A stretch of DNA of 64,000 nucleotides from contig JAKSVT010000004.1 in assembly GCA_024407875.1 (NCBI GenBank), forward strand, positions 6,982-70,981, read 5' to 3'. The DNA is from Alphaproteobacteria bacterium (GTDB taxonomy: Bacteria > Pseudomonadota > Alphaproteobacteria > CAAGCB01 > CAG-977). The notes under the pieces were generated by a model. The model was not told where the DNA came from, ran no database searches, and saw only the letters and a program-made list of their open reading frames with translations. Within the stretch, counting starts at the first letter, position 1. The number at the start of each line of letters is the position of its first letter. Shown here one piece after another: positions 42,653 to 57,348 of this stretch. The position numbers and the translations under genes are program-made.

Positions 42653-42728
42653 TGGCGATCCTATCGGGATTCGAACCCGAGTTAACGCCGTGAGAGGGCG
42701 TTGTCCTAGACCACTAGACGATAGGATC
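42653..42728 (-). tRNA. tRNA-Glu (anticodon CUC as read)
   Basis: The reverse complement folds as a cloverleaf: acceptor GATCCTA/TAGGATC, D-arm 'GTCTAGTGGTCTAGGAC', anticodon stem ACGCC/GGCGT with loop CTCTCAC, T-arm GGGTTCGAATCCC, and an encoded CCA. Confidence 0.75.
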
Positions 42729-42740
42729 ATTTTAAACTCA

Positions 42741-42817
42741 TGGTGCACCCGGCGGGATTCGAACCCACGGCCCTCGGCTTCGGAAACCGATACTCTATCC
42801 AGCTGAGCTACGAGTGC
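42741..42817 (-). tRNA. tRNA-Arg (anticodon CCG)
   Basis: Reverse complement: acceptor GCACTCG/CGGGTGC, anticodon loop TTCCGAA, T-arm GTGGGTTCGAATCCCGC, and an encoded CCA. Confidence 0.75.
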
Positions 42818-42954
42818 CAAGCACACTTAGATTTAAAATACTTATTTTTTAACAAAATACAATCAAAAAAGATTATCTTGTTAAAATATTTACAAAAAAA
42901 TCATAAAAAACTCTTGACGAAATACCTAAAACAATATAAATATTCTTTTGTATT

Positions 42955-43029
42955 TGGAGCGTAGCCAAGTGGTAAGGCAAAGGACTTTGACTCCTTCATG
43001 CGCTGGTTCGAATCCAGCCGCTCCAGCCA
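42955..43029 (+). tRNA. tRNA-Gln (anticodon UUG)
   Basis: Acceptor TGGAGCG/CGCTCCA with the U1–A72 pair typical of Gln, anticodon stem AAGGA/TCCTT with loop CTTTGAC, T-arm GCTGGTTCGAATCCAGC, and an encoded CCA. Confidence 0.8.
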
Positions 43030-43062: not shown

Positions 43063-43342
43063 CTTTTATTTTCAAGCATTTAATCCGGTTCGAAGATGAA
43101 TATATTTTGAAGGCTAGTTTTGCTGTATCTTCGAACTTGCTTCTATATTTTTCAATAACTTAGCTAATTGCAGCCTTTTTTAAGCATAAAAATGAACCTC
43201 TGCTAATTTTTGCAAAGGTTGAACTTCTGACATAGCTATATGAAAGGTTGTTTAGCAATATTGTTAATAAAAACATTTGCATTATTTACTATGTCAAAAT
43301 ATGTCGTAACCTAAATGTATGTTTTATATAGGATGAATATTA

Positions 43343-44253
43343 TGGCATATGAAAAGACTTTTAATTTGTTAGATTTGGCGATTTGGATGCAATCAACTCG
43401 CGAAGGAGTTAGTTTGTCAGATATTATGAGTCGCTTTCAAGTATCAAGAAGAACTGCCGAACGTATGCGAGATATGATATTAAGTCGATTTCCTCAAGTT
43501 GTTGAAGAAATCGGTGAAAATAATTCAAAACGTTGGTATATCCCGCAAGGCACATTAAAAGACTTTATTCAATTTTCGGCTGATGATATTGCTTGTCTTA
43601 ATTTAGCCAAAGATGCCTTAATTAAAGAAAAACTATCTGATAAAGCCGACCAATTAAATGCTATTATTGAAAAAATTACAGCTTCCATTAAGCCAAATAC
43701 TTTATTAAAAATAGAACCTGATGCAGAAGTTTTGTTAGAAGCTCAAGGTTTTGCTCGCCGTGTCGGTCCAAAAATTAAAATTGATACTCAATATTTGGAA
43801 ACAATTAAAGAGGCTATTTTATCTAGCAAAGAACTAAAAATTAAGCATAATAACAAAACTCAAATTGTAGCTCCTTATGGTTTCTTATATGGTAATAAGC
43901 CTTATTTGGTAGCTTATTCCAATAATGCAAAAGAGTTCAGATATTATGCTTTACACAAGTTAAATTCCGTTCAGCTGACAAATAATCATTTTATTAATAC
44001 TTTTTCATTAAACGAATTTACCAAAGATTGTTTTGGCGTTTATAAAGAAAAACCTTTTGAAGTTGAATGGTTATTTAATGCTGATGTAGCTAAAGATGTT
44101 GAAAAATATGAATTTCATCCATCTCAACAAATGATAAAAAATAAAGACGGTACTTTAACCGTAAAGTTTTTCGCAGGTGGTCAAAAAGAAATGGATTGGC
44201 ATCTTTATACCTGGGGTGATAAAGTTAAAGTAATAAAACCAGAAAGGAAATAA
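43343..44253 (+). CDS. HTH–WYL–WCX transcriptional regulator (YafY/BrxR/CapW family)
   Basis: N-terminal winged HTH ('SLSDIMSRFQVSRRTAERMRDMI'), central WYL-like domain ('APYGFLYGNKPYLVAY...RYYALHKL'), and C-terminal WCX with the 'HPSQ' hallmark. Start placed at ATG 43343 with an AGGA RBS. Confidence 0.7.
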
Positions 44254-44255
44254 AA

Positions 44256-44819
44256 ATGACGCAAGAAGAAAATAAATTAAAGTACATTGAGAAAGATACT
44301 AAAATTGTAATTTTAGGAACATTTCCCTCTGAAGCATCAAGAGATACTTTCTTTTATCACAAATCAACCAATCAGTTTTGGACCATATTAAGTAAGCTTT
44401 ATAATTGTAATGATATTTGTCATTTACAAAAGAATGAAACATCTAAAGACAAAGAAGAACAATTAATTGAAAACAGAAAAGCTTTTCTTAAAAAGCACCA
44501 AATTGGTTTATGGGATGTTATTGATAAATGTGACATAGATAAAAGCAAAGATTCCTCTATCAAAAATCCGACTTATAATGATTTAGCTTCATTAAAAACA
44601 GAATGTCCAAAGTTAGAGCACATTTATTTTAGCAGTAAAAAAGCTTTTCAATTTTATCAAAAATATTTGCGAGACAATTTAAAAGATTATGCAAGTAAAA
44701 TTTGGTTAGAAAATGTTGTTATTAAAGAAGCATTACCATCTCCAAGTTCTGCTAATGCTCGTTTGACATTAGAACAAAAGCAAAAAAGATGGGGAGAGTT
44801 GTTAGGCTTATTTAATTAA
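44256..44819 (+). CDS. UDG-superfamily DNA glycosylase-like protein (Mug/TDG-like)
   Basis: Motif A 'ILGTFPSEAS...FFYHKSTNQFW' (compare Mug 'GINPG...FAHPANRFW'). Motif B 'LPSPSSANARL' (compare 'LPNPSGLSR'). Lies 2 nt downstream of the WYL regulator. Confidence 0.5.
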   Translation: MTQEENKLKYIEKDTKIVILGTFPSEASRDTFFYHKSTNQFWTILSKLYNCNDICHLQKNETSKDKEEQLIENRKAFLKKHQIGLWDVIDKCDIDKSKDSSIKNPTYNDLASLKTECPKLEHIYFSSKKAFQFYQKYLRDNLKDYASKIWLENVVIKEALPSPSSANARLTLEQKQKRWGELLGLFN

Positions 44820-44913
44820 AAGCAATCTTCTTCTAAATCGCTAAATTTTCCTATATCTCGGTCAAATAAGCATTTTATCCATCCGCAATTGCCATTATTG
44901 TTTTTAGCGATTA

Positions 44914-45795
44914 TTATTTCACATTTATTTTCTTGTTCTGTTCTAGGCAATCTTCTTGCCATTCTTTATAACGTTTTTCAAAATGCTCTTTTGTTTCTCT
45001 TTTATACTGCTTTGGTTCTTTATCATACATATAATAACTTTCTCTATATAAAAATAAGAGTTTATCAGCATATGGAACGATATTACGATACCCGTCTTTA
45101 ATATCACTATTAATTGGTATTTTACATTGTCTTTGCTCTAGGTTTCGGTTTAGTTGAGAAAGTATAAGTATTGGAACATCTAATTTTTCTGCAATACTTT
45201 TAATATCTTGCATAAATTTTTTATAAGCTTGATTTGACTTATCTTCTGAATAAAGTGATAAAAGTTGCAAACAATCTATAACGACAAGCCCGAATTTATT
45301 TCTATTTGCAAATGCATATATCTTATCTTTTATATCACTAATAGAGCTTATTTGATTGCATAGATATATTGGCAATTGATTTATTTCATTACCGGTAAGT
45401 GCTATTTTTTCAAATTGTTTATAGTTTTCTATGTTGTGTCTTAATTCATATAAAGGAATTCCGGAAGCTAAACTAACAAACCGTTGCATTATATTCTTAT
45501 TATTGCATTCAAAATCAAAATATAAAACGTGTTTTATTTCTGAATTGTTTTGTTCTGCTTCTTCTTTGAATTTTTGTGCCACCTGATAAACACAGTTTAT
45601 TGCAAATGCCGTTTTTCCCATTGCAGGTCGTCCCGCTATAAGAACAACATCACCACCTCGAATATATCCTAGTCTTTCATCTAATCTATCTATACCTGTT
45701 GACAATCCGAGAGGCTCACTGTTCATTTGATAACGATATTCAACTTCTTTAATATATTCAAGAAATGCATCAGATATATGTAATGTTTTATCCAT
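44914..45795 (-). CDS. DnaB-family replicative helicase, C-terminal (RecA-like) domain only
   Basis: 'GLSTGIDRLDERLGYIRGGDVVLIAGRPAMGKTAF' (Walker A), 'VIDCLQLL' and 'ILSQLNRNLEQR...NSDIKDGYRNIVPYADKLLFLYRE'. The N-terminal DnaB domain is absent. Confidence 0.65.
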   Translation of the reverse strand: MDKTLHISDAFLEYIKEVEYRYQMNSEPLGLSTGIDRLDERLGYIRGGDVVLIAGRPAMGKTAFAINCVYQVAQKFKEEAEQNNSEIKHVLYFDFECNNKNIMQRFVSLASGIPLYELRHNIENYKQFEKIALTGNEINQLPIYLCNQISSISDIKDKIYAFANRNKFGLVVIDCLQLLSLYSEDKSNQAYKKFMQDIKSIAEKLDVPILILSQLNRNLEQRQCKIPINSDIKDGYRNIVPYADKLLFLYRESYYMYDKEPKQYKRETKEHFEKRYKEWQEDCLEQNKKINVK

Positions 45796-46032
45796 TTTAA
45801 TACTCCATACTAGTTTTTGTTGTATGGATATTAAACTAAAGATACGCCATATTTTGACAGATACAAATATACCAATATTGCAGATAGGTGAAATTAGTTA
45901 AAGAACAGGTTTTATTAGCAAACTAACATATTGTCATTAATAGTGGTAGGTTATAATTTACTTTTCTTAATGAAACATATATCAAAATCTAAATAGCTTA
46001 TATGGGGCGAAAGTACAATTTTCTATTTTACT

Positions 46033-46878
46033 TTATTTATCGCTAGTATTCTGATTAAGTATCGATTCAAAGAATCTATCAAATTCAAAAATTTCTTCTG
46101 CTTTCACAATTACACCAATATTGATAGGGAAACTGGTTACTGGCCTTGGAATACACGGGATGTAATCAAATTTTAAAATTCCTTCAGCATTGTATTCAAG
46201 CCCCCCATACAAAACTCCAACAAATTTAATATTATTACCTAAATATGCACCACTTTTATCAGTATACAATCCTTCGTTTAAAACAAACACAGGAGAACCA
46301 CTGCATCCGTGAAAACTTGCAATATCAATTAAAAATTCTTTTTTCCCATTGTAATTATTTTTAATATGCGTAGCAGTAATACCTTTACGAATAATTGGTT
46401 TGTGATTATATACATCTGAAAATCCTATCGGATATCCAACCATAACAATATTTTCAATAGCTGTCATGTTTTCTATTTCTTCTTGCGAAGGAATTAAACT
46501 CATATCCAATGGAATGTAAAAGGTGTGAATACCTTGTTTTATCACATTATCAAGTGCATCTGTTATTGGTAAGCAACATAAATCTACCGATAAACTTGGA
46601 TGTTCTATCCAAGGACACCCATCATATGTAAATGGAGCTGTTTTTGTATTACAGATATTTCCATCTGCATCGCATGTACATAACTCAAATTGTGTCATTA
46701 CACTATTCTTTACTACGTGTTTATTTGTAATAACGGCGGCTATATATTTACTATTATCTTTACTATTAAAATGGACAATAAAACCCGTACCTAAACTAAC
46801 TTTATGATTTTTATCAGTGCATTTAAGCAGCACAGTAGAATAAGTAATTTTTTCTGATAAACTCATTTGTTCAATCAT
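46033..46878 (-). CDS. Trypsin-like (S1/chymotrypsin-fold) serine protease, no signal peptide
   Basis: 'GTGFIV...AVITNKHVV' (His), 'HGCSGSPVFV' (Ser nucleophile); 281 aa. Confidence 0.5.
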   Translation of the reverse strand: MIEQMSLSEKITYSTVLLKCTDKNHKVSLGTGFIVHFNSKDNSKYIAAVITNKHVVKNSVMTQFELCTCDADGNICNTKTAPFTYDGCPWIEHPSLSVDLCCLPITDALDNVIKQGIHTFYIPLDMSLIPSQEEIENMTAIENIVMVGYPIGFSDVYNHKPIIRKGITATHIKNNYNGKKEFLIDIASFHGCSGSPVFVLNEGLYTDKSGAYLGNNIKFVGVLYGGLEYNAEGILKFDYIPCIPRPVTSFPINIGVIVKAEEIFEFDRFFESILNQNTSDK

Positions 46879-47030
46879 TTTTTATCTTTCAGAAAGGCTA
46901 ATTACAACATTATATATTTAGGGTTTTATTTCTCAAAACGCAAGTATTTTATTGATTTGAAAATCTATCTCGGGTTCCTAACACCCCGAAGTTAAAAACA
47001 ATTAAAATTTTAGCTCGAGAATTGCGAATT

Positions 47031-47080
47031 CACTCCAGCCAGACTTAACAGGTCGTCTTTAAAGACGGCCTTTTGCTTTA
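47031..47080 (+). repeat. Second copy of the tRNA-Gln 3'-end repeat plus hairpin (internal att-like junction)
   Basis: 'CACTCCAGCCAGA', then AGGTCGTCTTT-aa-AGACGGCCT hairpin and TTTTG. Confidence 0.55.
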
Positions 47081-47306
47081 TTTACAAGGCTTTCGGCTGG
47101 TCCGTGTGGTTAGCATCAAAAAACAGCCTTCCCGACAATTTACACGGACCAGTTATAGCAAGTTTCTTTATTTTTCAATCATTTATGAAATTTCATCTCT
47201 CTAAATATGCAATAACGCGATTTCGGGAGAAGATGGACTTCATTTACTTGAGGGAAAGATGTTGTTAATTTATTTAATTGATATTATTTTTAAAATATCC
47301 GTCAAT

Positions 47307-48605
47307 TTAGTTTTTTCCATAATTATCAAGTTTGATTTTGTTACGTATATTTTCATTATCAATATTTTCTACATATTTAATTACATTATCTGGTGCACCA
47401 TAATCACTTGCCATTTTACCTTTTTCAGTGTAAGCATTATATTCAAATTTTGATAATAATCTATCAAATCCCGTTACATCATCAATTTCGCATTTTAAAG
47501 TCTGAGATATCCTATATTTATAGATTAGATTGAATATCCCTAAATATTTTACAAGGTGATATTTAAGTTTATTATAGATAAAATCGGCTGTCGTTCTTAT
47601 AGCTCTATCATAATCCAGATTTTTCTTCTCTATATAATATTTAACTTCGCCATAAAATCCTGCTTTAAGATAACAACTTACCATATAAACAAGAACAGAG
47701 AACTCTTTACCTTCGTAAGTGGAAGTCTTATTATTGATTAATGAGTATATCGGCGAATCTTTTGCAATATCTTTTATTGTGTTCAGAAATATTTGGAAGC
47801 CATCAAAATTTATAGAATCGTACATAGTAGAATTTACACAATTTTCAATTTTAGCTAATTCCTCAGATGTTAATCCCATAATTTTATGAAATAGCGAAAC
47901 CTTATTTTGCTTTGAGATTGTCTTAAATTGAGTAAGTATGATACCAGGAAGTAAAGACGACAATCTATTTATTTCTTTTTTTCTTTCTAAATCTTGTTCC
48001 GATAAGTAATTATCTCTTGTATAATCTAGATCTATATCAGTTTTTGCAGACGTTTTATCATAATTTTTATGCTCTAAAATGGCGTCGTTTGCATATAACA
48101 CATCCATAAAATTATTTTGCAGAACAATAACTCTTCCTGAATAATGATGAAGAAATCTACCAGCACGACCCGCAATATTTTTTGCATCAAATGGTTTTAA
48201 TGGTTTAGGAGACTTTTTACATAGCGTTACAAGAATATTTTTTGCAGAGGTGTTTACTCCTTCCGTTATGGTTGTAGTTGTTGTTAAAACTTGTAATTCT
48301 CCTTGATTAAAAAATTTAATAATTTCTTTTTGAATATATTTTGGAACCAAGCCATTGTGTATACCCACACCTTTTTTCAGGGCTTTATATAATAACCAAT
48401 CTTCTGAAAATGTACTCTTTATATGTTCTAAAAATAATGCGTATTGACTATCATAATCGTGAAGCTCTGGTAAAATATCTAATAAATATTTGGCATAAGA
48501 CCTTGTTCCTTTTTTATCAGCACAATAGACAATACATTTTTCCCCATTATTAAGTAAGGTTTTTATAATTGATATAAATTTATCTGTTTTATTATTCTTA
48601 CACAT
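47307..48605 (-). pseudogene. SF2 helicase C-terminal fragment (RecA2 domain plus C-terminal extension); N-terminal ATPase domain missing
   Basis: Motifs IV–VI 'LTTTTTITEGVNTSAKNILV' and 'AGRAGR', but no Walker A/DEAD anywhere upstream. Only 75 bp separate it from the divergent neighbour. Confidence 0.5.
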
Positions 48606-48680
48606 TTTTTAACTGTAAGATTACCACAACATTGGGAAACTACTAATTTAAATCATGCAATAGGAAGATTAAGACTTATT

Positions 48681-49055
48681 ATGAAGGTATTTGAAAGATG
48701 TCTTATTAAAAATCATTGGAACAAACATCATTTACCTTTTATTGCTACTTCTGAAACAGGTGATGGTATATATTGGCATTTTCATATATTGTTTAATCAA
48801 GATAAATATACAGATGATATGTTAAATAATGCTATAAAGAAGACTATTAAATCTATAAGAGGTATGTCTGATTACTGCTTAAAATTAAAACATATTGAAG
48901 AAGATAATATAAAAACATTTGTAAAAGCTGTTAATGATACTGATTTTTATTGTTTAAAGGAGATAAAAGTTAATAGATATGGTAAATTTGACGGTGAAAG
49001 GATAATATTTTCTGATGATTTATTCAACTTGCCATATCAAAGCATATCCCATTGA
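48681..49055 (+). CDS. Hypothetical protein (124 aa) with an HUH-like 'WHFHILF' motif
   Basis: ORF only; 'HLPFIAT' followed by 'HFH' resembles HUH-endonuclease motifs, but this is speculative. Confidence 0.3.
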   Translation: MKVFERCLIKNHWNKHHLPFIATSETGDGIYWHFHILFNQDKYTDDMLNNAIKKTIKSIRGMSDYCLKLKHIEEDNIKTFVKAVNDTDFYCLKEIKVNRYGKFDGERIIFSDDLFNLPYQSISH

Positions 49056-49057
49056 GT

Positions 49058-49150
49058 CATAAACAACCCATAAACAGCCGGATTCATTTTTTATAACTAA
49101 ACCTATACCAAAAAGTAGAATTGAATCATATGGTCAAAAATAGACTTTAT
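49058..49150 (+). repeat. Direct repeat copy 1 (~93 bp), upstream of fic
   Basis: About 75% identical to 50368–50460; shared blocks 'ATAAACAACC', 'ATTCATTTTTTATAA' and 'GGTCAAAAA-T-GACTTT'. Confidence 0.6.
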
Positions 49151-49262
49151 CTCAACTATATAAAAATTACCTTATAATCAAAAAATCGTTAGTTAATCAT
49201 ATTTTATTATTGATTTATTCATAATTTAATCATAAAATAATCATAAATTATAGGAGTAAATC

Positions 49263-50348
49263 ATGACTTTTTTACCAAAATATACCATTACCAAAGATAT
49301 TTTAGCTGATTTAACTAAGATTGAAGCTGTTAAAAATTCGTTTGATGATAAACCTTTGTCACCGGTTTTGTTATCTTCGCTGCATAAAACTGCCAAAATT
49401 GCACAAAGTCACTACTCTACGCAAATTGAAGGTAATCATTTATCATTAAAACAAGTAGAAACGACGCTTTATTCTGCCAACAAATCGATTAAAGAATATC
49501 AAGGTCATGACGAAAAAGAAGTCAAAGCTTATTACAATGCTATCAATTATATGGAAAAAGTTCTTGAAAATGGTGGAGAATTTGATGAAAAGCTGGTGCA
49601 AAAAATCCATTCACTAATTGAAGGCAGTAAAAAAATTATTCCATATCGTAATGAACAAAATGCAATATACGACACATCTGACGGCTCACTTGTCTATCTG
49701 CCACCGGAAACTAAAGATGTTCCTGTTATGATGAAAGATTTGGTTGCTTGGGTAAATGATAACATTGATAAATTGCCAACACCTATTGTAGCAGGTTTAT
49801 TTCATTATCAGTTTGTGACTATCCATCCTTATTTTGACGGTAATGGTAGAACAGCACGCTTGATGACAAGTTATATTATGCGTAAATTCGGTTATGGCTT
49901 AAAAGGTATTTATTCTTTGGAAGAGTATTATGCTAAAAATCTCAAAGATTATTATCAAGCACTGGCAACACATCCGCATCACAACTATTATTTTGGCCGG
50001 AACGTTGCTGATTTAACTCCTTGGCTTGAATATTTTATTAAAGGTGTGGCGACAGCATTTGAAAATATCAATATTAAAGCACAAGAACAGCAGAACACAG
50101 GTATTAAAACGGATATATCACCAATGTTGCGTAAACTGGATATTAAACAACGCAAAATTTTAGAATTATTTGTGGAGTTTGATCAAATAACCTCAAATCA
50201 AGCAGGTGAATATTTGAATTTATCATCACAATCAGCCAGACTTTTATTAAACAGATGGGTAGAAGAAGGATTTTTAATAATAGCAAATAAAGCGCGTAAA
50301 AACAGAACTTATGGTTTAGCACAAGAATATGAACAGCTGATATCATAA
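49263..50348 (+). CDS. Fic-family protein (AMPylase-type) with C-terminal winged HTH
   Basis: Canonical Fic motif 'HPYFDGNGRTARL'; 361 aa. Confidence 0.8.
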   Translation: MTFLPKYTITKDILADLTKIEAVKNSFDDKPLSPVLLSSLHKTAKIAQSHYSTQIEGNHLSLKQVETTLYSANKSIKEYQGHDEKEVKAYYNAINYMEKVLENGGEFDEKLVQKIHSLIEGSKKIIPYRNEQNAIYDTSDGSLVYLPPETKDVPVMMKDLVAWVNDNIDKLPTPIVAGLFHYQFVTIHPYFDGNGRTARLMTSYIMRKFGYGLKGIYSLEEYYAKNLKDYYQALATHPHHNYYFGRNVADLTPWLEYFIKGVATAFENINIKAQEQQNTGIKTDISPMLRKLDIKQRKILELFVEFDQITSNQAGEYLNLSSQSARLLLNRWVEEGFLIIANKARKNRTYGLAQEYEQLIS

Positions 50349-50580: not shown

Positions 50581-50728
50581 CAAAACAAGCTTTAGTGTTT
50601 GTGTTTAGTTAATTAGTTGGCACCTTCCAATTTGATGTTGCAATCTGATAAAAACTCAGCAAATCTTCTTAAAGGAAAACCTGATTTTAAGCAAAGATTC
50701 TCGCGGTATTGATATTCTTTTCTGGAAT

Positions 50729-51757
50729 ATGTGCGTTTTAATGGCTAACAGTTATATTTTAAGCCTGTCTGACAATGTTCGCCGTAGTCTTGAATATAAC
50801 TGGAGCCAAGGCAAATGGCAGAGTTTGGCACCTATCGGATATCTCAATCAAAAAGATAAACATGGCAAATCCATTATAGTGATTGATGAAGAACGAGCAC
50901 CTATTATCAAGCGTTTGTTTGAAGAATATGCTACCGGTCTGCATACCGCACAAAGTTTATTGATTTTGGCTTGTAAATTAGGACTTACCGCTAAAGAAAC
51001 TTATTCAGAAGAGACACCTCAAAGAAAAAGATTTATCAGCCGTACCAAGATTTATGAAATTCTGCGTAATCCTTTTTATGCCGGAATTATGTGTGTCAAA
51101 GGAAAATTGATGCCACATATCCACGGCAAAATTATTGATAAAAAACTTTATGACCAAGTGCAGCAAATTATGGATGCTAAAGGTATGGAAAGAGAAATAC
51201 ATAAACATCAGCAAAAATACAAGGTTAAAAAGTTTGCATTTCGTGGAATTGTTTTGTGTGGCAGATGTCATCACTTAATGTCTCCGGATTGCAAAACCAA
51301 GACAAACGGCAAGCAATATACTTATTTAAGATGTTACAACAAATGCGGTCAAATGCCGATTAATGAAACCATATTGCTTAAACAGCTTGAAACAGAAGTA
51401 TTTGCTAAATTTTTCATACCACCGCAAGATTTTAATAAGATAAAACAATCTCTTATCAATCATTATAAACGACCATCACATGCAAAAACAGAGCTTTTGA
51501 ATAAACTGGTTAACCTGATTTGCAATATGCCAACCATTATGCAACAAGCAGATGCCGGCACCAAAAATGAAATATTGGTTATTCTGCTTCAAAATTTCAC
51601 CTTAAATGAGCAAACACTCTCTTATTCTCTTCGCTCGCCGTTTGATAAGCTGATTGAGACAGATTATCACAATTGGAAAGATATTATTATACATAATTTC
51701 AAAGACTTATCGTCGATTGGATATAATCTTAAAGCCATCAACTTAAAGGAGGATTAA
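50729..51757 (+). pseudogene. Large serine recombinase remnant lacking the N-terminal catalytic (resolvase) domain
   Basis: Paralog of 52169..53353, starting at the equivalent 'M.VLMA.NY..SLS.NV.RSL..NW..GKWQ' point. Has recombinase domain and Zn ribbon ('CGRCHHLM...LRCYNKCG'), but no 'ARVSS' catalytic domain upstream. Confidence 0.55.
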
Positions 51758-51760
51758 ACT

Positions 51761-52165
51761 ATGCGTAAAAAATACCAGAAGAAACTCATTGAAAAGTGTA
51801 CCGAAGCCATAACATTTGCGCGTGTTTCTAGCGAAAAACAGGAACGTGGCGCTTCTATTGATGCTCAAAAAGAATTGATCTACGATTATTGTATGGAGAA
51901 AAATTTCAAAATCATTAAAGAGTTTGAAATTACCGAGAGTACAACTCGCGGCGATCGTGTAAAATATAATGAAATGCTTGATTTTATTCGTTCTCGCAAC
52001 AAAAAGACCGCTATTGTTGTAAACTGCGTTGATAGACTTCAAAGAAGTGATGAAGATAATCCGGCACTTAATAAACTGCGCCGAGAAGGCAAAATTGAAA
52101 TACACTTTATGAAAGAGCATATTATCTTAGATGAAACTTCTCCGGTACAAGATATTTTTGCATAG
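51761..52165 (+). CDS. Serine recombinase N-terminal catalytic domain (ends at an in-frame TAG)
   Basis: 'ITFARVSSEKQ' (catalytic Ser) and 'VVNCVDRLQRS'. The ORF ends 'DIFA*' at TAG 52163–52165, in frame with the next ORF. Confidence 0.6.
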   Translation: MRKKYQKKLIEKCTEAITFARVSSEKQERGASIDAQKELIYDYCMEKNFKIIKEFEITESTTRGDRVKYNEMLDFIRSRNKKTAIVVNCVDRLQRSDEDNPALNKLRREGKIEIHFMKEHIILDETSPVQDIFA

Positions 52166-52168
52166 AAA

Positions 52169-53353
52169 ATGAATGTGCTAATGGCTGGCAACTACACGGA
52201 TTCATTATCATATAACGTAAAAAGAAGTTTGGTTAAAAACTGGAATTCTGGTAAATGGCAAGGCATGGCACCTCTCGGATATTTAAATCGCCATACAGAT
52301 GATGACAACAACGAAGCCATTATTATTGTTGATCCTGTTCGCGGACCGATTATCAAGCATTTATTTGAAGAATTTGCAACCGGTAAACATACTTTGAAAA
52401 CATTGTGGTATTTATCCAAAGAATTAGGTTTATATACCAAAAATAAAAAGAAAAAAGGCTGCTTTGTGAGCAGAAACACGCTTTATGATGTTCTGACCAA
52501 TCCGTTTTATCATGGTTTGATGTGTATCAAAGGCGAGTTTTACAATCATATTTATGAGCCGCTGATAAGCAAAGAATTATTTGACCGTGTACAAGCCATT
52601 TTGACCGGAAACGGCAATCATAATCGCAATAACACCACAGAATATGCCAAAACACCTTACATTTTCCGCGGTTTGATACATTGTAAAGAATGCGGTTGTT
52701 TGATTACGCCGGAAAAGAAAATCAAAAAGAACGGTAGCACGTATATTTATTTGCGTTGCGGTCATCCTTGTAAAGAATGTCATCAAGGAATAGTTAACGA
52801 AAATGTGATTATTGAGCAGCTGAAAAAGGAAGTTATGGATAAAATATCATTACCGCCGAAATTGCAGGAAATCGTCAAAGAAAAACTAACTCAAGAATTA
52901 AATGATACATCGGCTTTTAATAAGACTATGAAAACCAATATCACGAATAAACTGAACGAATTGAAAGTTAAAGAAGACAATTTACTTGATTTCTACCTGG
53001 AAGGAAAGCTGCCACAAGCAACTTATGAAGCCAAACAAGAACAGATTGCCAATCAGCGAGCTGAACTTGAGCAGACAGCCGAAAAATACAAAAATATTGA
53101 TGCCGATATGAAGAAAAGAGTTGTGCAGGTTATGGCTTTGGCAAATAATATCTCTAAGTTGTTTGATATGGCAACTCCAACCAGAAGAAACGAGTTATTA
53201 CAATTACTTATTTCAAACTGTCAACTTAATGATTCAAAATTAGAATATACCGTAAACGCACCATTTAACTGGTTAATGGATAGCAATAATTATACCGAAT
53301 GGACCACCGTCGTCATTGAGCATTTAGATGACTTTGAATGCGTGAAGGTGTAA
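52169..53353 (+). CDS. Large serine recombinase C-terminal portion (recombinase domain, Zn ribbon, coiled coil)
   Basis: Same frame as 51761..52165, separated by TAG+AAA. 'CKECGCLITP...LRCGHPCKEC' ribbon and a C-terminal coiled coil. Confidence 0.6.
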   Translation: MNVLMAGNYTDSLSYNVKRSLVKNWNSGKWQGMAPLGYLNRHTDDDNNEAIIIVDPVRGPIIKHLFEEFATGKHTLKTLWYLSKELGLYTKNKKKKGCFVSRNTLYDVLTNPFYHGLMCIKGEFYNHIYEPLISKELFDRVQAILTGNGNHNRNNTTEYAKTPYIFRGLIHCKECGCLITPEKKIKKNGSTYIYLRCGHPCKECHQGIVNENVIIEQLKKEVMDKISLPPKLQEIVKEKLTQELNDTSAFNKTMKTNITNKLNELKVKEDNLLDFYLEGKLPQATYEAKQEQIANQRAELEQTAEKYKNIDADMKKRVVQVMALANNISKLFDMATPTRRNELLQLLISNCQLNDSKLEYTVNAPFNWLMDSNNYTEWTTVVIEHLDDFECVKV

Positions 53354-53434
53354 GGATTATAATGGATGATATTTTAATAATATTGCAGATTTTATTTAAT
53401 TTATCATATACAATCACCGTAAATATCCAGGAGA

Positions 53435-55858
53435 TTGTACATGAAGATTATAAAAGAAATTACAAAATTGAAAAACTTTGCATCTTTTGAAGATTACGAA
53501 TGGGACTGCAAAGCATTAAATGATTTTGAAAAATATAATCTATTTTATGGGTTAAACGGTAGTGGAAAAACGACTTTATCTCGTTTATTCTATTTTCTTA
53601 ATGAAGGTATGATTTGTCATGAGGGGCACTATGATAGTGAATTTGGTATATTGCTTAATGACAACTCTTTAATTACACAATATGATAATAATGCATTAAA
53701 AGGAAAAATATGTGTTTTTAATGACTTATTTATTGAAAATTATTTAGATTTTAAGACCGTTAAATCAAAAAAAATTGTATATTTTTCTGCTGGAAAAGAT
53801 GCAAAAATGTTATTAGAATACAAAAAAGACTTAGAGAGAAGAAAACAAATTATAGCTAATAAACTCCAAAAAGTAAAAGATGAGTATTCACAACTTGATA
53901 TTAGTAATAAAAAAATTTATGGAGATTTTCAAGACAGCGTAGTAAATACTTTAGATATTAATAAAAATAAATTCAAAATTACTAACGCTATAAGCACATT
54001 AGATGTAATTCTTAAAAATCAATCTACTATATTCCTTTCAAATCAAGAAATTGATAACCAAAGAAATTTATATGCACAAACCCAACTCCCTATATTGGAT
54101 TATTCGTATTTGAAATCATATCCGTTAACTGTAGATGATATAGAAAAACTATCAGATTTATTAAAAGAAAAAATTGAAAGAAAAAATCTCTCCGATTTAC
54201 GGGATGAAATAGCTGATTGGCTAAATAATGGTATTACCTACCAAAATGAGCAATCTAACGGGAAATGTATTTTTTGCAATCAACCATTACATCCAACTAT
54301 CTGGCAAGAAAGAATCAAACAAATATTTCATATGACTGAAAAAGATGCCATATTTCAAATTAAAGAACAAACAATTAATCGGTATATTTCTGAAATACAA
54401 AATATACTCATGTCATCATTCAACATAAAAGAAAATATTAATCAATTTTACCCAAAATATAAAGTTGCATTCTCTAGTATTATAGGATCTTTACAATCTG
54501 AGTTCGACAACCTTAAAAATTTATTAGAAAAATTGATAAGTTATTTAACTGAAAAATTGAAAGATACTAAACGTAACATTGATATATCTGAGATTATGAT
54601 GGAAAATAATCTCAGTTTATATAATAATCTTGTTGTGTCTATTAATAATATAAATAGAACATTAGAAAAATTTGAAGATTTATTTACTAACAATAACCAA
54701 CATAGTCGAGTAATATCAAGTGAACAGACTGAGGCTTTTAATAATATATGTAGTTACTGTGCAACCTCTTTTGTCAAAGAATTATTAACTAACCATGATG
54801 CATTAAAAAGAAATGAAGCAGCCTCCAATAAATATATTAGTTTATTTAATAAAATAGAAACGAAATTAAAGCAGAAAGCACAAGAACTAGCAAATTCAGA
54901 AGCTCCTATTAACGAAATAAATGATATAATTCAACAAATAATGGGAAAAAATAAATTTTACTTTGATAAAGATGGTGTCGATGGGCAATATAGAATAAAA
55001 CGGATTGAACATAATAAAATAAATGAAGCCATAAATCTTAGCGAAGGTGAAAGAAATATTATATCTTTTGCTTTTTTTATCACATATATTAAGGAAAAGA
55101 TTGAAGATAGCATCATTGTAATTGATGATCCTATCTCTTCACTAGATAGTTCTTATTTTTTCAACATATTGAATCTTCTGTTAAGTTCTAGATTAATAAG
55201 AAATAATAAGTTAAAACAAATATTTATTTTAACCCATAATTTTTATTTTTTCAAAAAGCTAAGAAAAAATATTAAAGGACAGAAATGTCCACAATTAGAT
55301 GCAAATGGTAATATTATACGAGATTCAAATGGGAAAGAGTTAATTAAACTTTGTAAATATTCAAAAAAACAATCTCTCGAAAATAAGCAAATATACCAAA
55401 TTGTAAAAAGTAATTACGCATCATCAATTCAGCCACCATCTGACTACTTACGCAAATACAACAGCGAATATCTCACACTAATTGAACAATTCATAAAATA
55501 TAAAAATAATTTAGATATTACATCATATCAATATGATGAAGGTATTTCTGTTCTAAATACAATGAGAAGAATTTTAGAAACCTTTCTCGAAAACAAATAC
55601 CCTACATCAGGAGGAGAAGGCTTTAATGCAAAATTCCAAGAAACAATCACTAAATTACACAGAGATGACTTATTATATTTAGCAGACATTCTTAATATCG
55701 GTAGTCATGGTGATAACCCTTTCCCCTCTCTTAACTATACTAAATATGAAGATTTCTCAAAGTTGACTGATGATTATCTTGATTATATTAAGAGCCTAGA
55801 TATTGATTTCTATAGCAGTGTATTTGAGCCATTATTATCTATACATATGAAACCATAG
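53435..55858 (+). CDS. PrrC/RloC-like ABC ATPase (AAA_13) with CxxC zinc-hook; candidate anticodon nuclease / abortive-infection protein
   Basis: Walker A 'GLNGSGKTT' and a long coiled coil carrying 'CIFCNQ'. ABC signature 'LSEGER' and Walker B/D-loop 'IIVIDDPISSLDS'. The ~240-aa C-terminal domain ('RRILE...GSHG') is unassigned. Confidence 0.5.
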   Translation: MYMKIIKEITKLKNFASFEDYEWDCKALNDFEKYNLFYGLNGSGKTTLSRLFYFLNEGMICHEGHYDSEFGILLNDNSLITQYDNNALKGKICVFNDLFIENYLDFKTVKSKKIVYFSAGKDAKMLLEYKKDLERRKQIIANKLQKVKDEYSQLDISNKKIYGDFQDSVVNTLDINKNKFKITNAISTLDVILKNQSTIFLSNQEIDNQRNLYAQTQLPILDYSYLKSYPLTVDDIEKLSDLLKEKIERKNLSDLRDEIADWLNNGITYQNEQSNGKCIFCNQPLHPTIWQERIKQIFHMTEKDAIFQIKEQTINRYISEIQNILMSSFNIKENINQFYPKYKVAFSSIIGSLQSEFDNLKNLLEKLISYLTEKLKDTKRNIDISEIMMENNLSLYNNLVVSINNINRTLEKFEDLFTNNNQHSRVISSEQTEAFNNICSYCATSFVKELLTNHDALKRNEAASNKYISLFNKIETKLKQKAQELANSEAPINEINDIIQQIMGKNKFYFDKDGVDGQYRIKRIEHNKINEAINLSEGERNIISFAFFITYIKEKIEDSIIVIDDPISSLDSSYFFNILNLLLSSRLIRNNKLKQIFILTHNFYFFKKLRKNIKGQKCPQLDANGNIIRDSNGKELIKLCKYSKKQSLENKQIYQIVKSNYASSIQPPSDYLRKYNSEYLTLIEQFIKYKNNLDITSYQYDEGISVLNTMRRILETFLENKYPTSGGEGFNAKFQETITKLHRDDLLYLADILNIGSHGDNPFPSLNYTKYEDFSKLTDDYLDYIKSLDIDFYSSVFEPLLSIHMKP

Positions 55859-55896
55859 AAATTTTATTCTTCTATCATAGTCCGTGTATTGCAAGC

Positions 55897-55942
55897 TCAC
55901 TCCAGCCAAATTTTAAAGTCGTCAGAAATGGCAACTTTTTTT
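55897..55942 (+). repeat. Third copy of the tRNA-Gln 3'-end repeat plus (degenerate) hairpin; right boundary of island
   Basis: 'CACTCCAGCCAAA', then AAGTCGTCAGAAATGGCAACT (one G-to-A change relative to the tRNA-proximal hairpin) and T7. Confidence 0.55.
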
Positions 55943-55975: not shown

Positions 55976-56422
55976 ATGTTAAATCAAGATTTAAAAATGG
56001 AAAAATTTACAGAAAACGATAGACAAGAATTAATGAATATGATGATAGAATTCTTTTCTTCAGAAGCTGTATCTACAAATGGAAATCCTGAAATTTTTAA
56101 ATCTACTATAGATAATTGTATATATAACCCTACATATGTAGAAGGATATATTTTAAAATTCAAAAATGAAAATGCAGGTTATATTATAATTGCCAAAAGT
56201 TTTACTACAGAATTTGGGAAAAATTGCCTTTGGCTTGAAGATTTATATTTAAAAAATCAATTTAGAGGGAAAGGCATCATTCCTTATTGCTTAGATCTTA
56301 TAAAAACAAAATATCCTGATTATATCTTTAAATTAGAAGTTGAAGCAGAAAATGAACATGCAATACACGTATATAAGAAATTCGGATTTAAAGAATTTCC
56401 TTATTTTGTAATGCATACTTAA
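55976..56422 (+). CDS. GNAT-family N-acetyltransferase
   Basis: 'RGKGI' and 'HVYKKFGFKE' motifs; 148 aa. Confidence 0.6.
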   Translation: MLNQDLKMEKFTENDRQELMNMMIEFFSSEAVSTNGNPEIFKSTIDNCIYNPTYVEGYILKFKNENAGYIIIAKSFTTEFGKNCLWLEDLYLKNQFRGKGIIPYCLDLIKTKYPDYIFKLEVEAENEHAIHVYKKFGFKEFPYFVMHT

Positions 56423-56443: not shown

Positions 56444-56638
56444 TTATATCTGATGAGAATATTCTGATTCGTTTGTTTCCACAAATTCATCATCATGATC
56501 AAGCATAATTTCAGCTAATACGTCATTATTAATCTTGTCTTCGCCATTTATTTTTTCATAACATACACGAGGACCTAGTTCTGTGTATTCTACTTTATAC
56601 ACCTTACTGTTAATTCTATAATACTTATAATCGCTCAT
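56444..56638 (-). CDS. Small acidic protein (64 aa), translationally coupled downstream of the RelA/SpoT-domain gene; putative antitoxin
   Basis: TAATG overlap at 56636–56640; D/E-rich sequence. Confidence 0.35.
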   Translation of the reverse strand: MSDYKYYRINSKVYKVEYTELGPRVCYEKINGEDKINNDVLAEIMLDHDDEFVETNESEYSHQI

Positions 56639-57348
56639 TATCTTGCCCTTTTACTCAAAAGCAACGCTTTCTTTGTTGCATTATTTAATAGCTTTGGCTC
56701 TTCTTTTGTTTCTTGTTTTGTTTCTTCAGGAACATTCTTTAATTTTCTACCTTTTGTTGTAGCATTATATGTTCTTGCAGCTTCAGCGTATAAATATTTT
56801 TGTGCTTGAGAATGAATATTTAATGCAATCTGTTCACTAGGCGTCAAAGCTCTATCTTTTGCTCCAGCCATAATGGAACGAATTTTTTCATAATGTAAAT
56901 GAGCTTTTTCATTTGCTTCTAAATAAGCACGTAAATGAATTTGAATTTCAACAGGAGCTCCACTAGATACAGCAACTACATATTTAACATCTCTGTATCC
57001 ATCTTTATTTGGTTCATCCATACGATCTACTTTTCTAACTGTATCAGCTCTTTTATCTAATATACCTGTAACAGCATCAATTTGTTCCAAAGTATCACAT
57101 ACAATACGACCTCTAGCTAAATCCTGTAATCTTGAAGGATCTCCATCATATTTATGATTTAATTTTTCAAAAGCTCTTGCACGTCCCTTTAAAGGAGCTG
57201 CTGTATATGTAACCCCAGGAACCTCTTTAATTACATTTTCACAAAAAGCATCCAATTCAGGCTTTGATTTTTCAGCATAAGCATAAGCTTCATCTAAAGT
57301 TTTTGGTTTGTATTCAGGTCTCATTTTTTGTCTCCGATACATATTCAA
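56638..57348 (-). CDS. Stand-alone RelA/SpoT-domain (small alarmone synthetase-like) protein; candidate toxSAS
   Basis: 'GRARAFEK..', 'GRIVCDT', 'DGYRDVKYVV' and 'EIQIHL' (compare EIQIRT); 236 aa with a basic C-terminal tail. Confidence 0.55.
   Translation of the reverse strand: MNMYRRQKMRPEYKPKTLDEAYAYAEKSKPELDAFCENVIKEVPGVTYTAAPLKGRARAFEKLNHKYDGDPSRLQDLARGRIVCDTLEQIDAVTGILDKRADTVRKVDRMDEPNKDGYRDVKYVVAVSSGAPVEIQIHLRAYLEANEKAHLHYEKIRSIMAGAKDRALTPSEQIALNIHSQAQKYLYAEAARTYNATTKGRKLKNVPEETKQETKEEPKLLNNATKKALLLSKRAR

What the first reader, a model, noticed from the sequence alone, without database searches (positions are those of the whole stretch)
53435..55858. 807-aa PrrC/RloC-like ABC ATPase with CxxC hook: candidate anticodon nuclease at the island's right end
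The protein has Walker A 'GLNGSGKTT' and a very long coiled-coil insert containing 'CIFC' (Rad50-like zinc hook). It also has the ABC signature 'LSEGER', Walker B 'IIVIDDPISSLDS' and a ~240-aa C-terminal effector domain. Together these reproduce the RloC architecture, and RloC is a wobble-nucleotide-excising tRNase that acts as a suicidal anti-phage device. I could not identify a canonical Rx4-6H HEPN motif in the C-terminal domain, so the effector may be a divergent or different nuclease.
Basis: partly seen in the sequence, partly recalled or inferred. Interest (0 to 1): 0.65.

Follow-up and report, generated by a model that had tools for sequence, protein, structure and literature searches.

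The report
RloC-type anticodon nuclease defence gene
This gene encodes a divergent but intact member of the known RloC family, a Rad50-like ATPase fused to a tRNA-cutting nuclease that bacteria are thought to use as a suicidal anti-phage device, so it is an ordinary defence gene with one unusual active-site detail.

Summary
The ORF is real. The true start is ATG 53441, giving 805 aa, because the AGGAG ribosome-binding site lies 7 nt upstream of it.

Walker A, CxxC, the signature motif, Walker B and the H-loop are invariant in 104 aligned homologs. The CxxC is also present in 143 further cluster representatives.

The protein matches Pfam AAA_13 at 1e-82 and PADLOC PDC-S06 at 3e-84. It carries the motif that defines RloC, Arg-x3-Glu-x36-52-(Ser)His, as R709-x3-E713-x42-S755-H756.

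The AlphaFold model shows a Rad50-like head, a coiled coil of about 365 aa with the hook at its apex, and a helical C-domain. That C-domain resembles HEPN toxins only weakly.

dN/dS against an 82%-identical homolog is 0.20, and 0.065 in the C-domain, so the gene is under purifying selection.

The residue 7 before the catalytic His is Arg or Lys in about 80-90% of the family, but Asp here and non-basic in the closest relatives.

The gene and a serine recombinase, here killed by a TGG→TAG change, form a 4.16-kb module shared with another contig. The module lies at the right end of a decaying defence island.

Verdict: a new member of a known kind.

The parts
53441..55858 (+). rloC-like gene, 805 codons plus stop (RloC-family ABC ATPase / anticodon nuclease)
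   Evidence: ORF. Pfam AAA_13 1e-82. PADLOC PDC-S06 3e-84. Identical to NCBI protein P0001. dN/dS 0.20 against L081.
53429..53433 (+). AGGAG ribosome-binding site, 7 nt before ATG 53441
   Evidence: Read directly from the sequence.
53334..53363 (+). Promoter-like site TTGAAT-18-TATAAT overlapping the end of the recombinase ORF (consensus match only)
   Evidence: 10 of 12 matches. Not evidence of function.
53441..53791 (+). ATPase head, N-lobe (aa 1-117), including Walker A GLNGSGKTT (53549-53575) and the invariant VFN motif (53711-53731)
53792..54904 (+). Coiled-coil insert (aa 118-488): long helices 119-171, 254-271, 285-324, 338-374 and 393-485
   Evidence: AlphaFold model, mean pLDDT 80. 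Foldseek best hits are Rad50, SMC and LmuB.
54266..54277 (+). CxxC zinc-hook motif (C276-I-F-C279) in the apical loop 272-284, preceded by invariant W260 and G264
   Evidence: Invariant in 104 of 104 homologs. Present in 143 of 143 representatives. Loop position.
54905..55270 (+). ATPase head, C-lobe (aa 489-610): signature LSEGER (55037-55054), Walker B/D-loop IIVIDDPISSLDS (55112-55150), H-loop FILTHN (55223-55240)
   Evidence: The PADLOC PrrC model aligns only here (aa 489-621).
55271..55384 (+). Variable insert (aa 611-648), predicted with low confidence and containing Cys616 and Cys638; present only in this protein and P0002
55385..55855 (+). C-terminal effector domain (aa 649-805): a beta-hairpin followed by six helices; putative anticodon nuclease (diverged HEPN)
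   Evidence: Separate model with pLDDT 81 and pTM 0.77. Weak HEPN-toxin hits. dN/dS 0.065.
55556..55579 (+). N706-x2-R709-x3-E713: the Arg and Glu of the RloC/PrrC catalytic triad
   Evidence: N706 and R709 are invariant in 104 of 104; position 713 is E in 94 and D in 10. Equivalent to GkaRloC R692/E696 and EcoPrrC R320/E324 (PMC2610378).
55685..55708 (+). D749-x2-N752-x2-S755-H756: the catalytic His with its preceding Ser and the Asn equivalent to PrrC N352. Asp sits where most of the family has Arg or Lys (PrrC R349).
   Evidence: H756 in 104 of 104 and S755 in 103 of 104. Position -7 is R 56, K 39, D 6, and R 65, K 41, D 10 in representatives. PrrC residues from PMC3025547.
51761..53353 (+). 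Large serine recombinase pseudogene directly upstream (530 codons). TGG→TAG at 52163-52165 splits it into ORFs of 134 and 394 aa.
   Evidence: Pfam Resolvase, Recombinase and Zn_ribbon_recom. 95% aa identity to the intact L081 recombinase. The same stop is in the independent assembly L082.
51750..55908 (+). 4.16-kb two-gene module (recombinase + rloC) shared at 88.6% nucleotide identity with contig L081; its right edge is the right end of the island
   Evidence: blastn, L081 8307-12473 against window 51750-55908.

Best explanation
The gene encodes an RloC-family anticodon nuclease, a single-protein abortive-infection or stress device.

**Mechanism, inferred by analogy with Geobacillus and Acinetobacter RloC.**
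1. Two protomers join through the CxxC zinc hook at the tip of a Rad50-like coiled coil.
2. The ABC head binds DNA ends or breaks, such as those produced during phage attack or genotoxic stress.
3. DNA-dependent ATP hydrolysis then switches on the C-terminal metal-independent RNase.
4. The R709/E713/H756 triad cuts a tRNA anticodon loop, excising the wobble nucleotide in characterised RloCs. This stops translation in the infected cell.

**What is shown here.**
- The architecture is present.
- All ATPase, hook and triad residues are invariant across the family.
- The gene is under purifying selection.
- It sits in a mobile defence-island context.

**What is inferred.**
- RNase activity.
- The tRNA target.
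- The DNA-break trigger.
- Phage protection.

**Subfamily difference.** This protein belongs to a subfamily in which three basic positions of the nuclease domain are replaced. These are -7 from the catalytic His, the SEY+1 His, and R659. Its substrate or cleavage details may therefore differ from the characterised enzymes.
For: **Family assignment.**
- Pfam AAA_13 1e-82 over aa 13-761.
- PADLOC PDC-S06 3e-84, nearly full length.
- JGI names several homologs 'wobble nucleotide-excising tRNase'.

**RloC definition.** The published definition is met: Arg-X3-Glu-X36-52-His with a preceding Ser, plus a CxxC/coiled-coil insert and ABC motifs (PMC2610378). Here it appears as R709-x3-E713-x42-S755-H756. 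R709 and H756 are invariant, and C276/C279 are invariant in 104 of 104.

**Structure.**
- The AlphaFold model shows head, coiled coil, hook loop and a helical C-domain.
- Foldseek against the PDB finds Rad50, SMC, LmuB and AriA for the whole protein.
- For the C-domain, HEPN toxins are the top weak hits.

**Selection.** dN/dS is 0.20 overall, 0.065 in the C-domain and 0.09 in the head C-lobe.

**Genomic context.**
- The window gene lies in a defence island with SoFic, PDC-S45, a HamB fragment and a WYL regulator.
- The closest homolog lies 3 kb from a type III-like Mod/Res pair.
- Type I R-M families are the commonest neighbours in 33 other loci.
- Both linkages, to Fic/Doc and to R-M, are described for RloC-like ABC-HEPN genes (PMC3710099).

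**Mechanism.** Taken from PMC3458546 and PMC3874168.
Against: - No activity was measured, and no RloC or PrrC structure exists in the PDB for comparison.
- The C-domain fold match to HEPN is not significant: best E=0.5, TM 0.33-0.47.
- The canonical HEPN Arg is Asp here. Its PrrC equivalent, R349, is strictly essential in EcoPrrC.
- The His equivalent to PrrC H295 is Leu here.
- The PADLOC PrrC model matches only the ATPase lobe and never the C-domain.
- Direct phage protection by any RloC remains poorly documented. It is listed as 'not tested' in PMC12322248.
- The surrounding island is decaying. Two recombinases are dead and HamB is truncated.
Confidence: 0.72

Rival explanations
1. It has the same architecture but is a functionally distinct nuclease subfamily. 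Remodelling of the nuclease domain (Asp at -7, loss of the SEY+1 His and of R659, gain of K656, Y746 and K768) redirects it. The new target could be a different tRNA, a different cleavage position, or another RNA such as rRNA or mRNA.
For: - The 16 closest sequences differ from 106 mainstream members in a coordinated way. Position 749 is R/K in 99% of the mainstream against 0% of the subfamily. Position 659 is basic in 84% against 6%. Position 678 is basic in 64% against 0%. Y746 is present in 14 of the 16.
- The -7 position is D, S, T, N or P in the top-ranked representatives.
- The PrrC equivalents R349 and H295 are strictly essential in EcoPrrC.
- The C-domain is under strong purifying selection, so the changes are not decay.
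Against: - The mutationally validated RloC triad (R, E, H), together with N706, N752 and S755, is fully retained.
- K already replaces R at -7 in 39 of 104 family members. R349K is inactive in PrrC, so this position is evidently less strict in RloC than in PrrC.
- No data exist on any member of this subfamily.
Confidence: 0.15
2. It is primarily an addiction or stabilisation toxin of a serine-recombinase mobile cassette rather than a host anti-phage gene. A DNA-break-sensing toxin carried as the only cargo would penalise loss or damage of the element.
For: - The 4.16-kb recombinase + rloC module is shared at 88.6% between two different contexts.
- A serine recombinase gene lies immediately upstream in 5 of 7 informative loci of the subfamily.
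- GkaRloC itself is listed next to a resolvase (supplement of PMC2610378).
- 95 of 107 plasmid records with homologs are conjugative.
Against: - Here the recombinase is dead (TAG at 52163) while rloC stays under purifying selection, so the gene is kept without mobility.
- Recombinases are not among the frequent neighbours in the wider family.
- No antitoxin-like partner is seen.
- Linkage to recombinases is what any horizontally moving defence gene shows.
Confidence: 0.08
3. It is a Rad50/SbcC-like DNA-repair or SMC-type ATPase, and the C-terminal domain is only a structural appendage.
For: Foldseek best hits for the full model are Mre11-Rad50, condensin or cohesin heads, and Lamassu LmuB. A profile search of the PDB gives Rad50 at 2.4e-5.
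Against: - SMC_N scores below Pfam's cut-off (23 against 40 bits), while AAA_13 scores 279 bits.
- No Mre11/SbcD-type nuclease gene lies nearby.
- The C-domain carries invariant N, R, E and SH residues and has the lowest dN/dS of the protein.
- The gene is in an accessory island, has 26% GC against 31% for the window, and is patchily distributed.
Confidence: 0.03
4. It is a silent relic: an intact-looking but non-functional gene in a decaying island.
For: The neighbours are degraded: a nonsense recombinase, a 5'-truncated recombinase, a truncated HamB and a truncated 216-aa gene. A related 213-aa RloC remnant exists elsewhere.
Against: The 805-codon ORF is uninterrupted, has a good RBS and keeps every catalytic residue. 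dN/dS is 0.20 against its 82%-identical homolog.
Confidence: 0.02

Closest known systems
RloC (Geobacillus kaustophilus GkaRloC, Acinetobacter baylyi AbaRloC; COG4694, Pfam AAA_13)
   Same: - Size: 805 aa against 804 aa for GkaRloC.
- ABC head split by a coiled-coil insert of about 365 aa with a central CxxC.
- C-terminal R-x3-E-x(36-52)-S-H triad.
- A single-gene system without an obligatory partner.
- Occasional linkage to R-M, Fic/Doc and resolvase genes.
   Different: - At most about 37% identity to any other 50%-identity cluster representative; one 82%-identical homolog (P0002) exists.
- Asp instead of Arg or Lys at -7 from the catalytic His.
- Leu instead of His after the SEY motif.
- No Arg at position 659.
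- An extra 38-aa insert at 611-648 and a second CxxC at 437-440.
- No biochemical data exist for this subfamily.
PrrC anticodon nuclease (E. coli prr locus)
   Same: ABC-type NTPase motifs with the same unusual variants (LSxGE signature, DDPxSSLD D-loop, TH H-loop). The Arg-Glu-His triad and the Asn 4 residues before the His (PrrC N352) are also shared.
   Different: - PrrC is about 400 aa, with no coiled coil or zinc hook.
- It is always embedded in a type Ic hsd locus, is silenced by it, and is activated by the T4 Stp peptide.
- The PrrC profile matches only aa 489-621 here (1e-8) and never the C-domain.
- No hsd genes are in the island.
Rad50 / SbcC / T4 gp46
   Same: Head, antiparallel coiled coil and CxxC zinc-hook architecture. 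Best structural matches for the whole model.
   Different: No Mre11/SbcD partner, a much shorter coiled coil, an extra C-terminal nuclease-like domain, and accessory rather than core gene status.
PADLOC candidate system PDC-S06
   Same: The protein is a near full-length match to three PDC-S06 models (3e-84, 2e-79, 3e-62), so current defence-annotation pipelines would already flag it.
   Different: PDC-S06 is only a bioinformatic candidate label with no described mechanism. It evidently covers RloC-like AAA_13 proteins.
Other ABC-ATPase + nuclease defence proteins (OLD, Gabija GajA, PARIS AriA/AriB, Lamassu LmuB/LmuA)
   Same: The logic is shared: an ABC/SMC-type sensor controls a toxic nuclease. 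Weak profile and fold matches to AriA and LmuB.
   Different: Those systems use Toprim or Cap4-type nucleases, often as separate subunits. Here the effector is a fused helical, HEPN-like domain.

Membership tests
RloC | ABC ATPase motifs: Walker A, signature, Walker B/D-loop, H-loop | tested here: met
   GLNGSGKTT at 37-45, LSEGER at 533-538, IIVIDDPISSLDS at 558-570, TH at 598-599. The key residues are invariant in 104 of 104.
RloC | Coiled-coil insert with a central CxxC zinc hook between Walker A and the signature motif | tested here: met
   Helices span 119-485 with C276-x2-C279 in the loop at 272-284. The CxxC is invariant in 104 of 104 and present in 143 of 143.
RloC | C-proximal Arg-X3-Glu-X36-52-His motif, with Ser often preceding the His (Davidov & Kaufmann 2008) | tested here: met
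   R709-x3-E713-x42-S755-H756. R and H are invariant, position 713 is E in 94 and D in 10, and S is present in 103 of 104.
RloC | Size within the 658-897 aa range, and a match to the AAA_13/COG4694 profile | tested here: met
   805 aa. AAA_13 at 279 bits against a cut-off of 36. Homologs carry the JGI name 'wobble nucleotide-excising tRNase'.
RloC | Residues equivalent to EcoPrrC R349 and H295, reported as conserved in RloC (Meineke et al. 2011) | tested here: not met
   D749 and L678. The mainstream family has R/K at the first position (99% of 106) and His at the second (62%). The 16 closest sequences have neither.
RloC | Wobble-nucleotide excision from tRNA; ACNase activated by DNA-dependent ATPase; zinc responsiveness | not testable with these tools
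   Biochemical properties of GkaRloC and AbaRloC (PMC2610378, PMC3458546, PMC3874168).
PrrC | Protein of about 400 aa without a coiled-coil insert | tested here: not met
   805 aa with a coiled-coil insert of about 365 aa.
PrrC | Gene embedded in a type Ic hsd (R-M) locus | tested here: not met
   No hsd family was found among the ORFs scanned between 34.8 and 60.8 kb.
PrrC | Profile match across the ACNase domain | tested here: not met
   The PADLOC PrrC model matches only aa 489-621 (1e-8). The C-domain alone, and 26 homologous C-domains, never hit it even at E up to 10.
HEPN superfamily | Rx4-6H active-site motif | tested here: not met
   The sequence is D749-x6-H756. 95 of 104 homologs have [RK]-x6-H.
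HEPN superfamily | Helical-bundle HEPN fold | tested here: inconclusive
Rad50/SbcC | Head, coiled coil and zinc hook together with an Mre11/SbcD partner nuclease and an SMC_N/SbcC profile match | tested here: not met
   The architecture resembles Rad50. However, SMC_N scores 23 bits against a cut-off of 40, and no Mre11/SbcD-like neighbour is present.

The most novel reading that the evidence does not exclude
The window protein may represent an undescribed RloC subfamily of at least about 12 clusters at 50% identity.

In this subfamily the nuclease domain has been remodelled in a coordinated way:
- The HEPN Arg/Lys at -7 becomes Asp.
- The SEY+1 His is lost.
- R659 is lost.
- Y746, K656 and K768 are gained.
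- The R/E/H triad is kept.

This would imply a changed RNA target or cleavage chemistry. In its closest members the gene also travels as the sole cargo of a serine-recombinase cassette.
Probability: 0.2. Interest if true: 0.5.

Novelty: new member of a known kind. Interest (0 to 1): 0.3.

Why it matters
RloC is one of the few defence proteins that couple a Rad50-like DNA-break sensor to a tRNA nuclease. No structure has been solved, and few members have been studied.

This example adds little conceptually. It confirms that gut or environmental low-GC Alphaproteobacteria carry RloC in defence islands.

It does point to a natural set of variants that lack the basic residue at -7 from the catalytic His, which is otherwise Arg or Lys in about 80-99% of the family sets examined. 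These variants could help define which residues of the PrrC/RloC nuclease are catalytic and which set substrate specificity.

The compact recombinase + rloC module also shows how a self-regulated toxin can move without a silencing partner.

Tried and rejected
**Searches that gave nothing useful**
- Sequence search of the PDB with the protein found only an irrelevant ABC transporter at E=0.88. The same search with the family profile found only Rad50/AriA heads and coiled-coil noise. No PrrC or RloC structure is available.
- NCBIfam gave only sub-threshold ABC-transporter hits.
- Fold search of the C-domain against BFVD viral structures found nothing, best E=0.2.
- A profile search with the C-domain alone was meant to recover PrrC-length proteins. 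It returned only short AAA_13 fragments because of the word-index pre-filter, so it says nothing about PrrC.
- Scanning 27 C-domains against PADLOC at E up to 10 gave no PrrC hit.
- The OCR of the RloC paper's supplementary alignment was too corrupted to rebuild the GkaRloC sequence for a direct pairwise test.
- Rfam and tandem-repeat scans of 42.0-57.5 kb found only the three tRNAs and trivial AT-rich repeats.

**Ideas considered and dropped**
- Phase variation: a resolvase- or invertase-controlled invertible promoter upstream of rloC. Inverted-repeat searches in five loci found only AT-rich, low-identity pairs and a short palindrome next to the resolvase start, so there is no support.
- General linkage of the non-basic -7 subfamily to serine recombinases. 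P0124 and P0129 have none nearby.
- The GNAT gene downstream as a conserved partner. The window GNAT gave no match (E ≤ 1e-3) to those next to the homologs.
Full report
**Observation**

The window holds an uninterrupted ORF at 53435..55858 on the + strand. The listed TTG is only the first possible start codon. An AGGAG lies at 53429-53433, 7 nt before ATG 53441. Homologs begin at the corresponding Met. The identical NCBI protein, 'MAG: AAA family ATPase [Alphaproteobacteria bacterium]', has 805 residues. I therefore use 805-aa numbering.

- GLNGSGKTT at 37-45
- CIFC at 276-279
- LSEGER at 533-538
- IIVIDDPISSLDS at 558-570
- the H-loop TH at 598-599

**Family assignment**

Pfam AAA_13 (PF13166) matches residues 13-761 at E=1e-82 (279 bits). 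SMC_N stays below its gathering score. PADLOC gives near full-length matches to its candidate system PDC-S06 (3e-84). The PrrC model matches only at 1e-8, and that match is confined to the ATPase C-lobe at residues 489-621. NCBIfam and the PDB sequence search give nothing useful.

A word-indexed search found 80 homologs. Only one was close (P0002, 82%); the rest were at most 31% identical. Several are named 'wobble nucleotide-excising tRNase' by JGI. An exhaustive HMMER search of 1.84 billion cluster representatives found 3113 at E≤1e-3, the closest at 37% identity. A scan of GTDB genomes found relatives in many bacterial phyla and one archaeal MAG.

**Conservation**

I aligned 104 sequences: 32 database homologs and 72 genome loci. 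The following are invariant:
- N39 and K43 (Walker A)
- W260, C276 and C279 (hook region)
- S534 and E537 (signature)
- D562 and D563 (Walker B)
- H599 (H-loop)
- N706, R709 and H756 in the C-terminal region

S755 is present in 103 of 104. Position 713 is Glu in 94 and Asp in 10.

Davidov & Kaufmann defined RloC by three features: PrrC-like ABC motifs, a Rad50-like coiled-coil/CxxC insert, and 'Arg-X3-Glu-X36-52-His (where Ser often precedes His)'. GkaRloC R692, E696 and H737 were validated by mutagenesis (PMC2610378). The window protein has R709-x3-E713-x42-S755-H756. It is simply not a contiguous Rx4-6H.

**Structure**

The full-length AlphaFold model has mean pLDDT 80. It shows:
- an N-lobe at 1-117
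- long helices from 119 to 485, with the CxxC in the loop at 272-284
- the ATPase C-lobe at 490-610
- a low-confidence insert at 611-648, found only in this protein and P0002
- a beta-hairpin followed by a helical domain at 649-803

Foldseek against the PDB returns Mre11-Rad50, SMC heads, Lamassu LmuB and AriA. No RloC or PrrC structure exists.

**The unusual detail**

In EcoPrrC, R349, N352 and H356 form the R-x2-N-x3-H segment, which is the HEPN Rx6H. R349 and H295 are strictly essential, and both are reported as conserved in RloC (PMC3025547).

In the 104-sequence alignment, the position 7 before the catalytic His is R in 56, K in 39 and D in 6. The window protein and P0002-P0005 are among the Asp cases. 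Among 134 cluster representatives the counts are R 65, K 41 and D 10. The top-ranked relatives carry D, S, T, N or P at this position.

I compared the 16 closest sequences with 106 mainstream members. The differences are coordinated:

| Position | Mainstream (106) | Closest 16 |
|---|---|---|
| 749 | basic in 99% | basic in 0% |
| 659 | basic in 84% | basic in 6% |
| 678, after the SEY motif (probably PrrC H295) | basic in 64% | basic in 0% |
| 656 | basic in 17% | Lys in 12 of 16 |
| 746 | Arg in 32, Ala in 25 | Tyr in 14 of 16 |
| 768 | basic in 1% | Lys in 10 of 16 |

**Selection**

Against the 82%-identical homolog on contig L081, Nei-Gojobori dN/dS is as follows:

| Region | dN/dS |
|---|---|
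| Whole gene | 0.20 |
| Head N-lobe | 0.15 |
| Coiled coil | 0.215 |
| Head C-lobe | 0.09 |
| C-domain | 0.065 |

The gene, and especially its effector domain, is under purifying selection.

**Context in the window**

The region between the tRNA-Gln gene (42955-43029) and about 55908 is an accessory island. It contains:
- a WYL/WCX regulator
- a UDG-like gene
- a DnaB_C/KaiC-like ATPase
- a PDC-S45 trypsin-like protease
- only the C-terminal 432 aa of a Hachiman HamB helicase
- a SoFic-type Fic protein
- a 5'-truncated large serine recombinase (50729-51757)
- a second large serine recombinase (51761-53353)
- rloC

rloC is 25.9% GC, against 30.7% for the whole window.

**The shared module**

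blastn shows that window 51750-55908 equals L081 8307-12473 at 88.6% identity. This defines a 4.16-kb module of recombinase plus rloC. It ends 50 nt after the rloC stop codon, and no similarity follows.

In L081 the recombinase is intact at 530 aa. In the window a TGG→TAG change at 52163-52165 kills it. The same stop is present in an independent assembly.

Upstream of the module, L081 carries a type III-like Mod/Res pair where the window carries Fic. These are the two linkages, to R-M and to Fic/Doc, already described for RloC-like genes.

**Context of homologs**

In the closest subgroup, a serine recombinase gene lies directly upstream in five of seven informative loci. In 33 loci of the wider family, the commonest neighbour families are type I R-M subunits: HSDR_N 4, Methylase_S 4, N6_Mtase 3, ResIII 7. 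RhuM, SIR2 and BrxL also appear. This minority R-M linkage matches the 8 of 72 reported in 2008. Homologs at about 25% identity occur on 107 plasmids, 95 of them conjugative. They are almost absent from phage genomes.

**Mechanism**

By analogy with GkaRloC and AbaRloC, the proposed mechanism has three elements (PMC3458546, PMC3874168):
1. The zinc hook and the DNA-dependent ATPase form an internal switch.
2. DNA breaks activate the C-terminal nuclease.
3. The nuclease excises the wobble nucleotide of target tRNAs and halts translation.

The architecture, residue conservation, selection and context are shown here. The activity, target, trigger and phage protection are inferred. The remodelled basic residues mean the target or cleavage details may differ.

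**Comparison and verdict**

The protein is a member of the RloC family by every sequence-level defining feature tested. The exception is the two accessory residues equivalent to PrrC R349 and H295.

It is not a PrrC. It has a coiled coil, is not in an hsd locus, and its nuclease domain does not match the PrrC profile. It is not a Rad50/SbcC repair protein.

Current defence-annotation tools would already flag it as PDC-S06. It is therefore a new, divergent member of a known kind. Its interest is modest and lies in the natural active-site variation and the compact recombinase-linked module.

Noticed in passing
window 51761-53353 (stop at 52163-52165): A large serine recombinase is inactivated by a single TGG→TAG change at codon 135. 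It is otherwise 95% identical in protein sequence to the intact 530-aa gene in L081. The same stop is present in an independent Logan assembly (L082).
   Followed up: yes
window 50666-51757: A second, 5'-truncated large serine recombinase lies directly upstream of the first. It has the Recombinase and Zn-ribbon domains but has lost the catalytic Resolvase domain. It is 33-42% identical to its neighbour.
   Followed up: partly
window 47307-48605 (-) and junction near 48600: Only the C-terminal 432 aa of a Hachiman HamB helicase remain (PADLOC model positions 323-756 of 767, E=4e-147), and no HamA is seen. The same junction also truncates a gene whose full 216-aa form is in L081 (828-1478).
   Followed up: partly
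window 43315-50348: The rest of the island holds a WYL/WCX regulator (43315-44253), a UDG-like protein (44256-44819), a DnaB_C/KaiC-like ATPase (44914-45795, -), a PDC-S45 trypsin-like protease (46033-46878, -; 9e-91) and a SoFic-type Fic protein (49263-50348; 3e-50).
   Followed up: partly
window 42653-43029: tRNA-Glu(ctc), tRNA-Arg(ccg) and tRNA-Gln(ttg) genes border the island. The natural targets reported for Acinetobacter RloC are tRNA-Glu and tRNA-Gln. This is probably a coincidence of islands inserting near tRNA genes.
   Followed up: no
window 54749-54760 and 55271-55384: The protein has a second CxxC (C437-S-Y-C440) inside the long descending helix. It also has two cysteines (616, 638) in a 38-aa insert. 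Both features are shared only with P0002. Their significance is unknown.
   Followed up: no
L086 7003-8642 (also L085, L087, L088): A 213-aa C-terminal RloC remnant (P0085) is 65% identical to the window C-domain and is seen on 13 contigs. In L086 it sits beside a small resolvase and a tyrosine integrase. It is a decayed copy of the same subfamily at another locus.
   Followed up: partly
L083 6979-7020; L086 7566-7584 and 7836-7854: Short palindromic sites containing TGTAAA lie between the small resolvase gene and rloC, and may be res or operator sites. No convincing invertible segment was found.
   Followed up: partly
window 37593-39449 (+) and 59263-60837 (-): Two long ORFs of 618 and 524 aa have no Pfam hit. 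The 618-aa ORF also has no PADLOC hit.
   Followed up: no
window 56638-57348 (-): A small RelA/SpoT-type alarmone synthetase lies just outside the island and gives a weak PADLOC PDC-S33 match (3e-7). It sits next to a GNAT gene (55976-56422).
   Followed up: no
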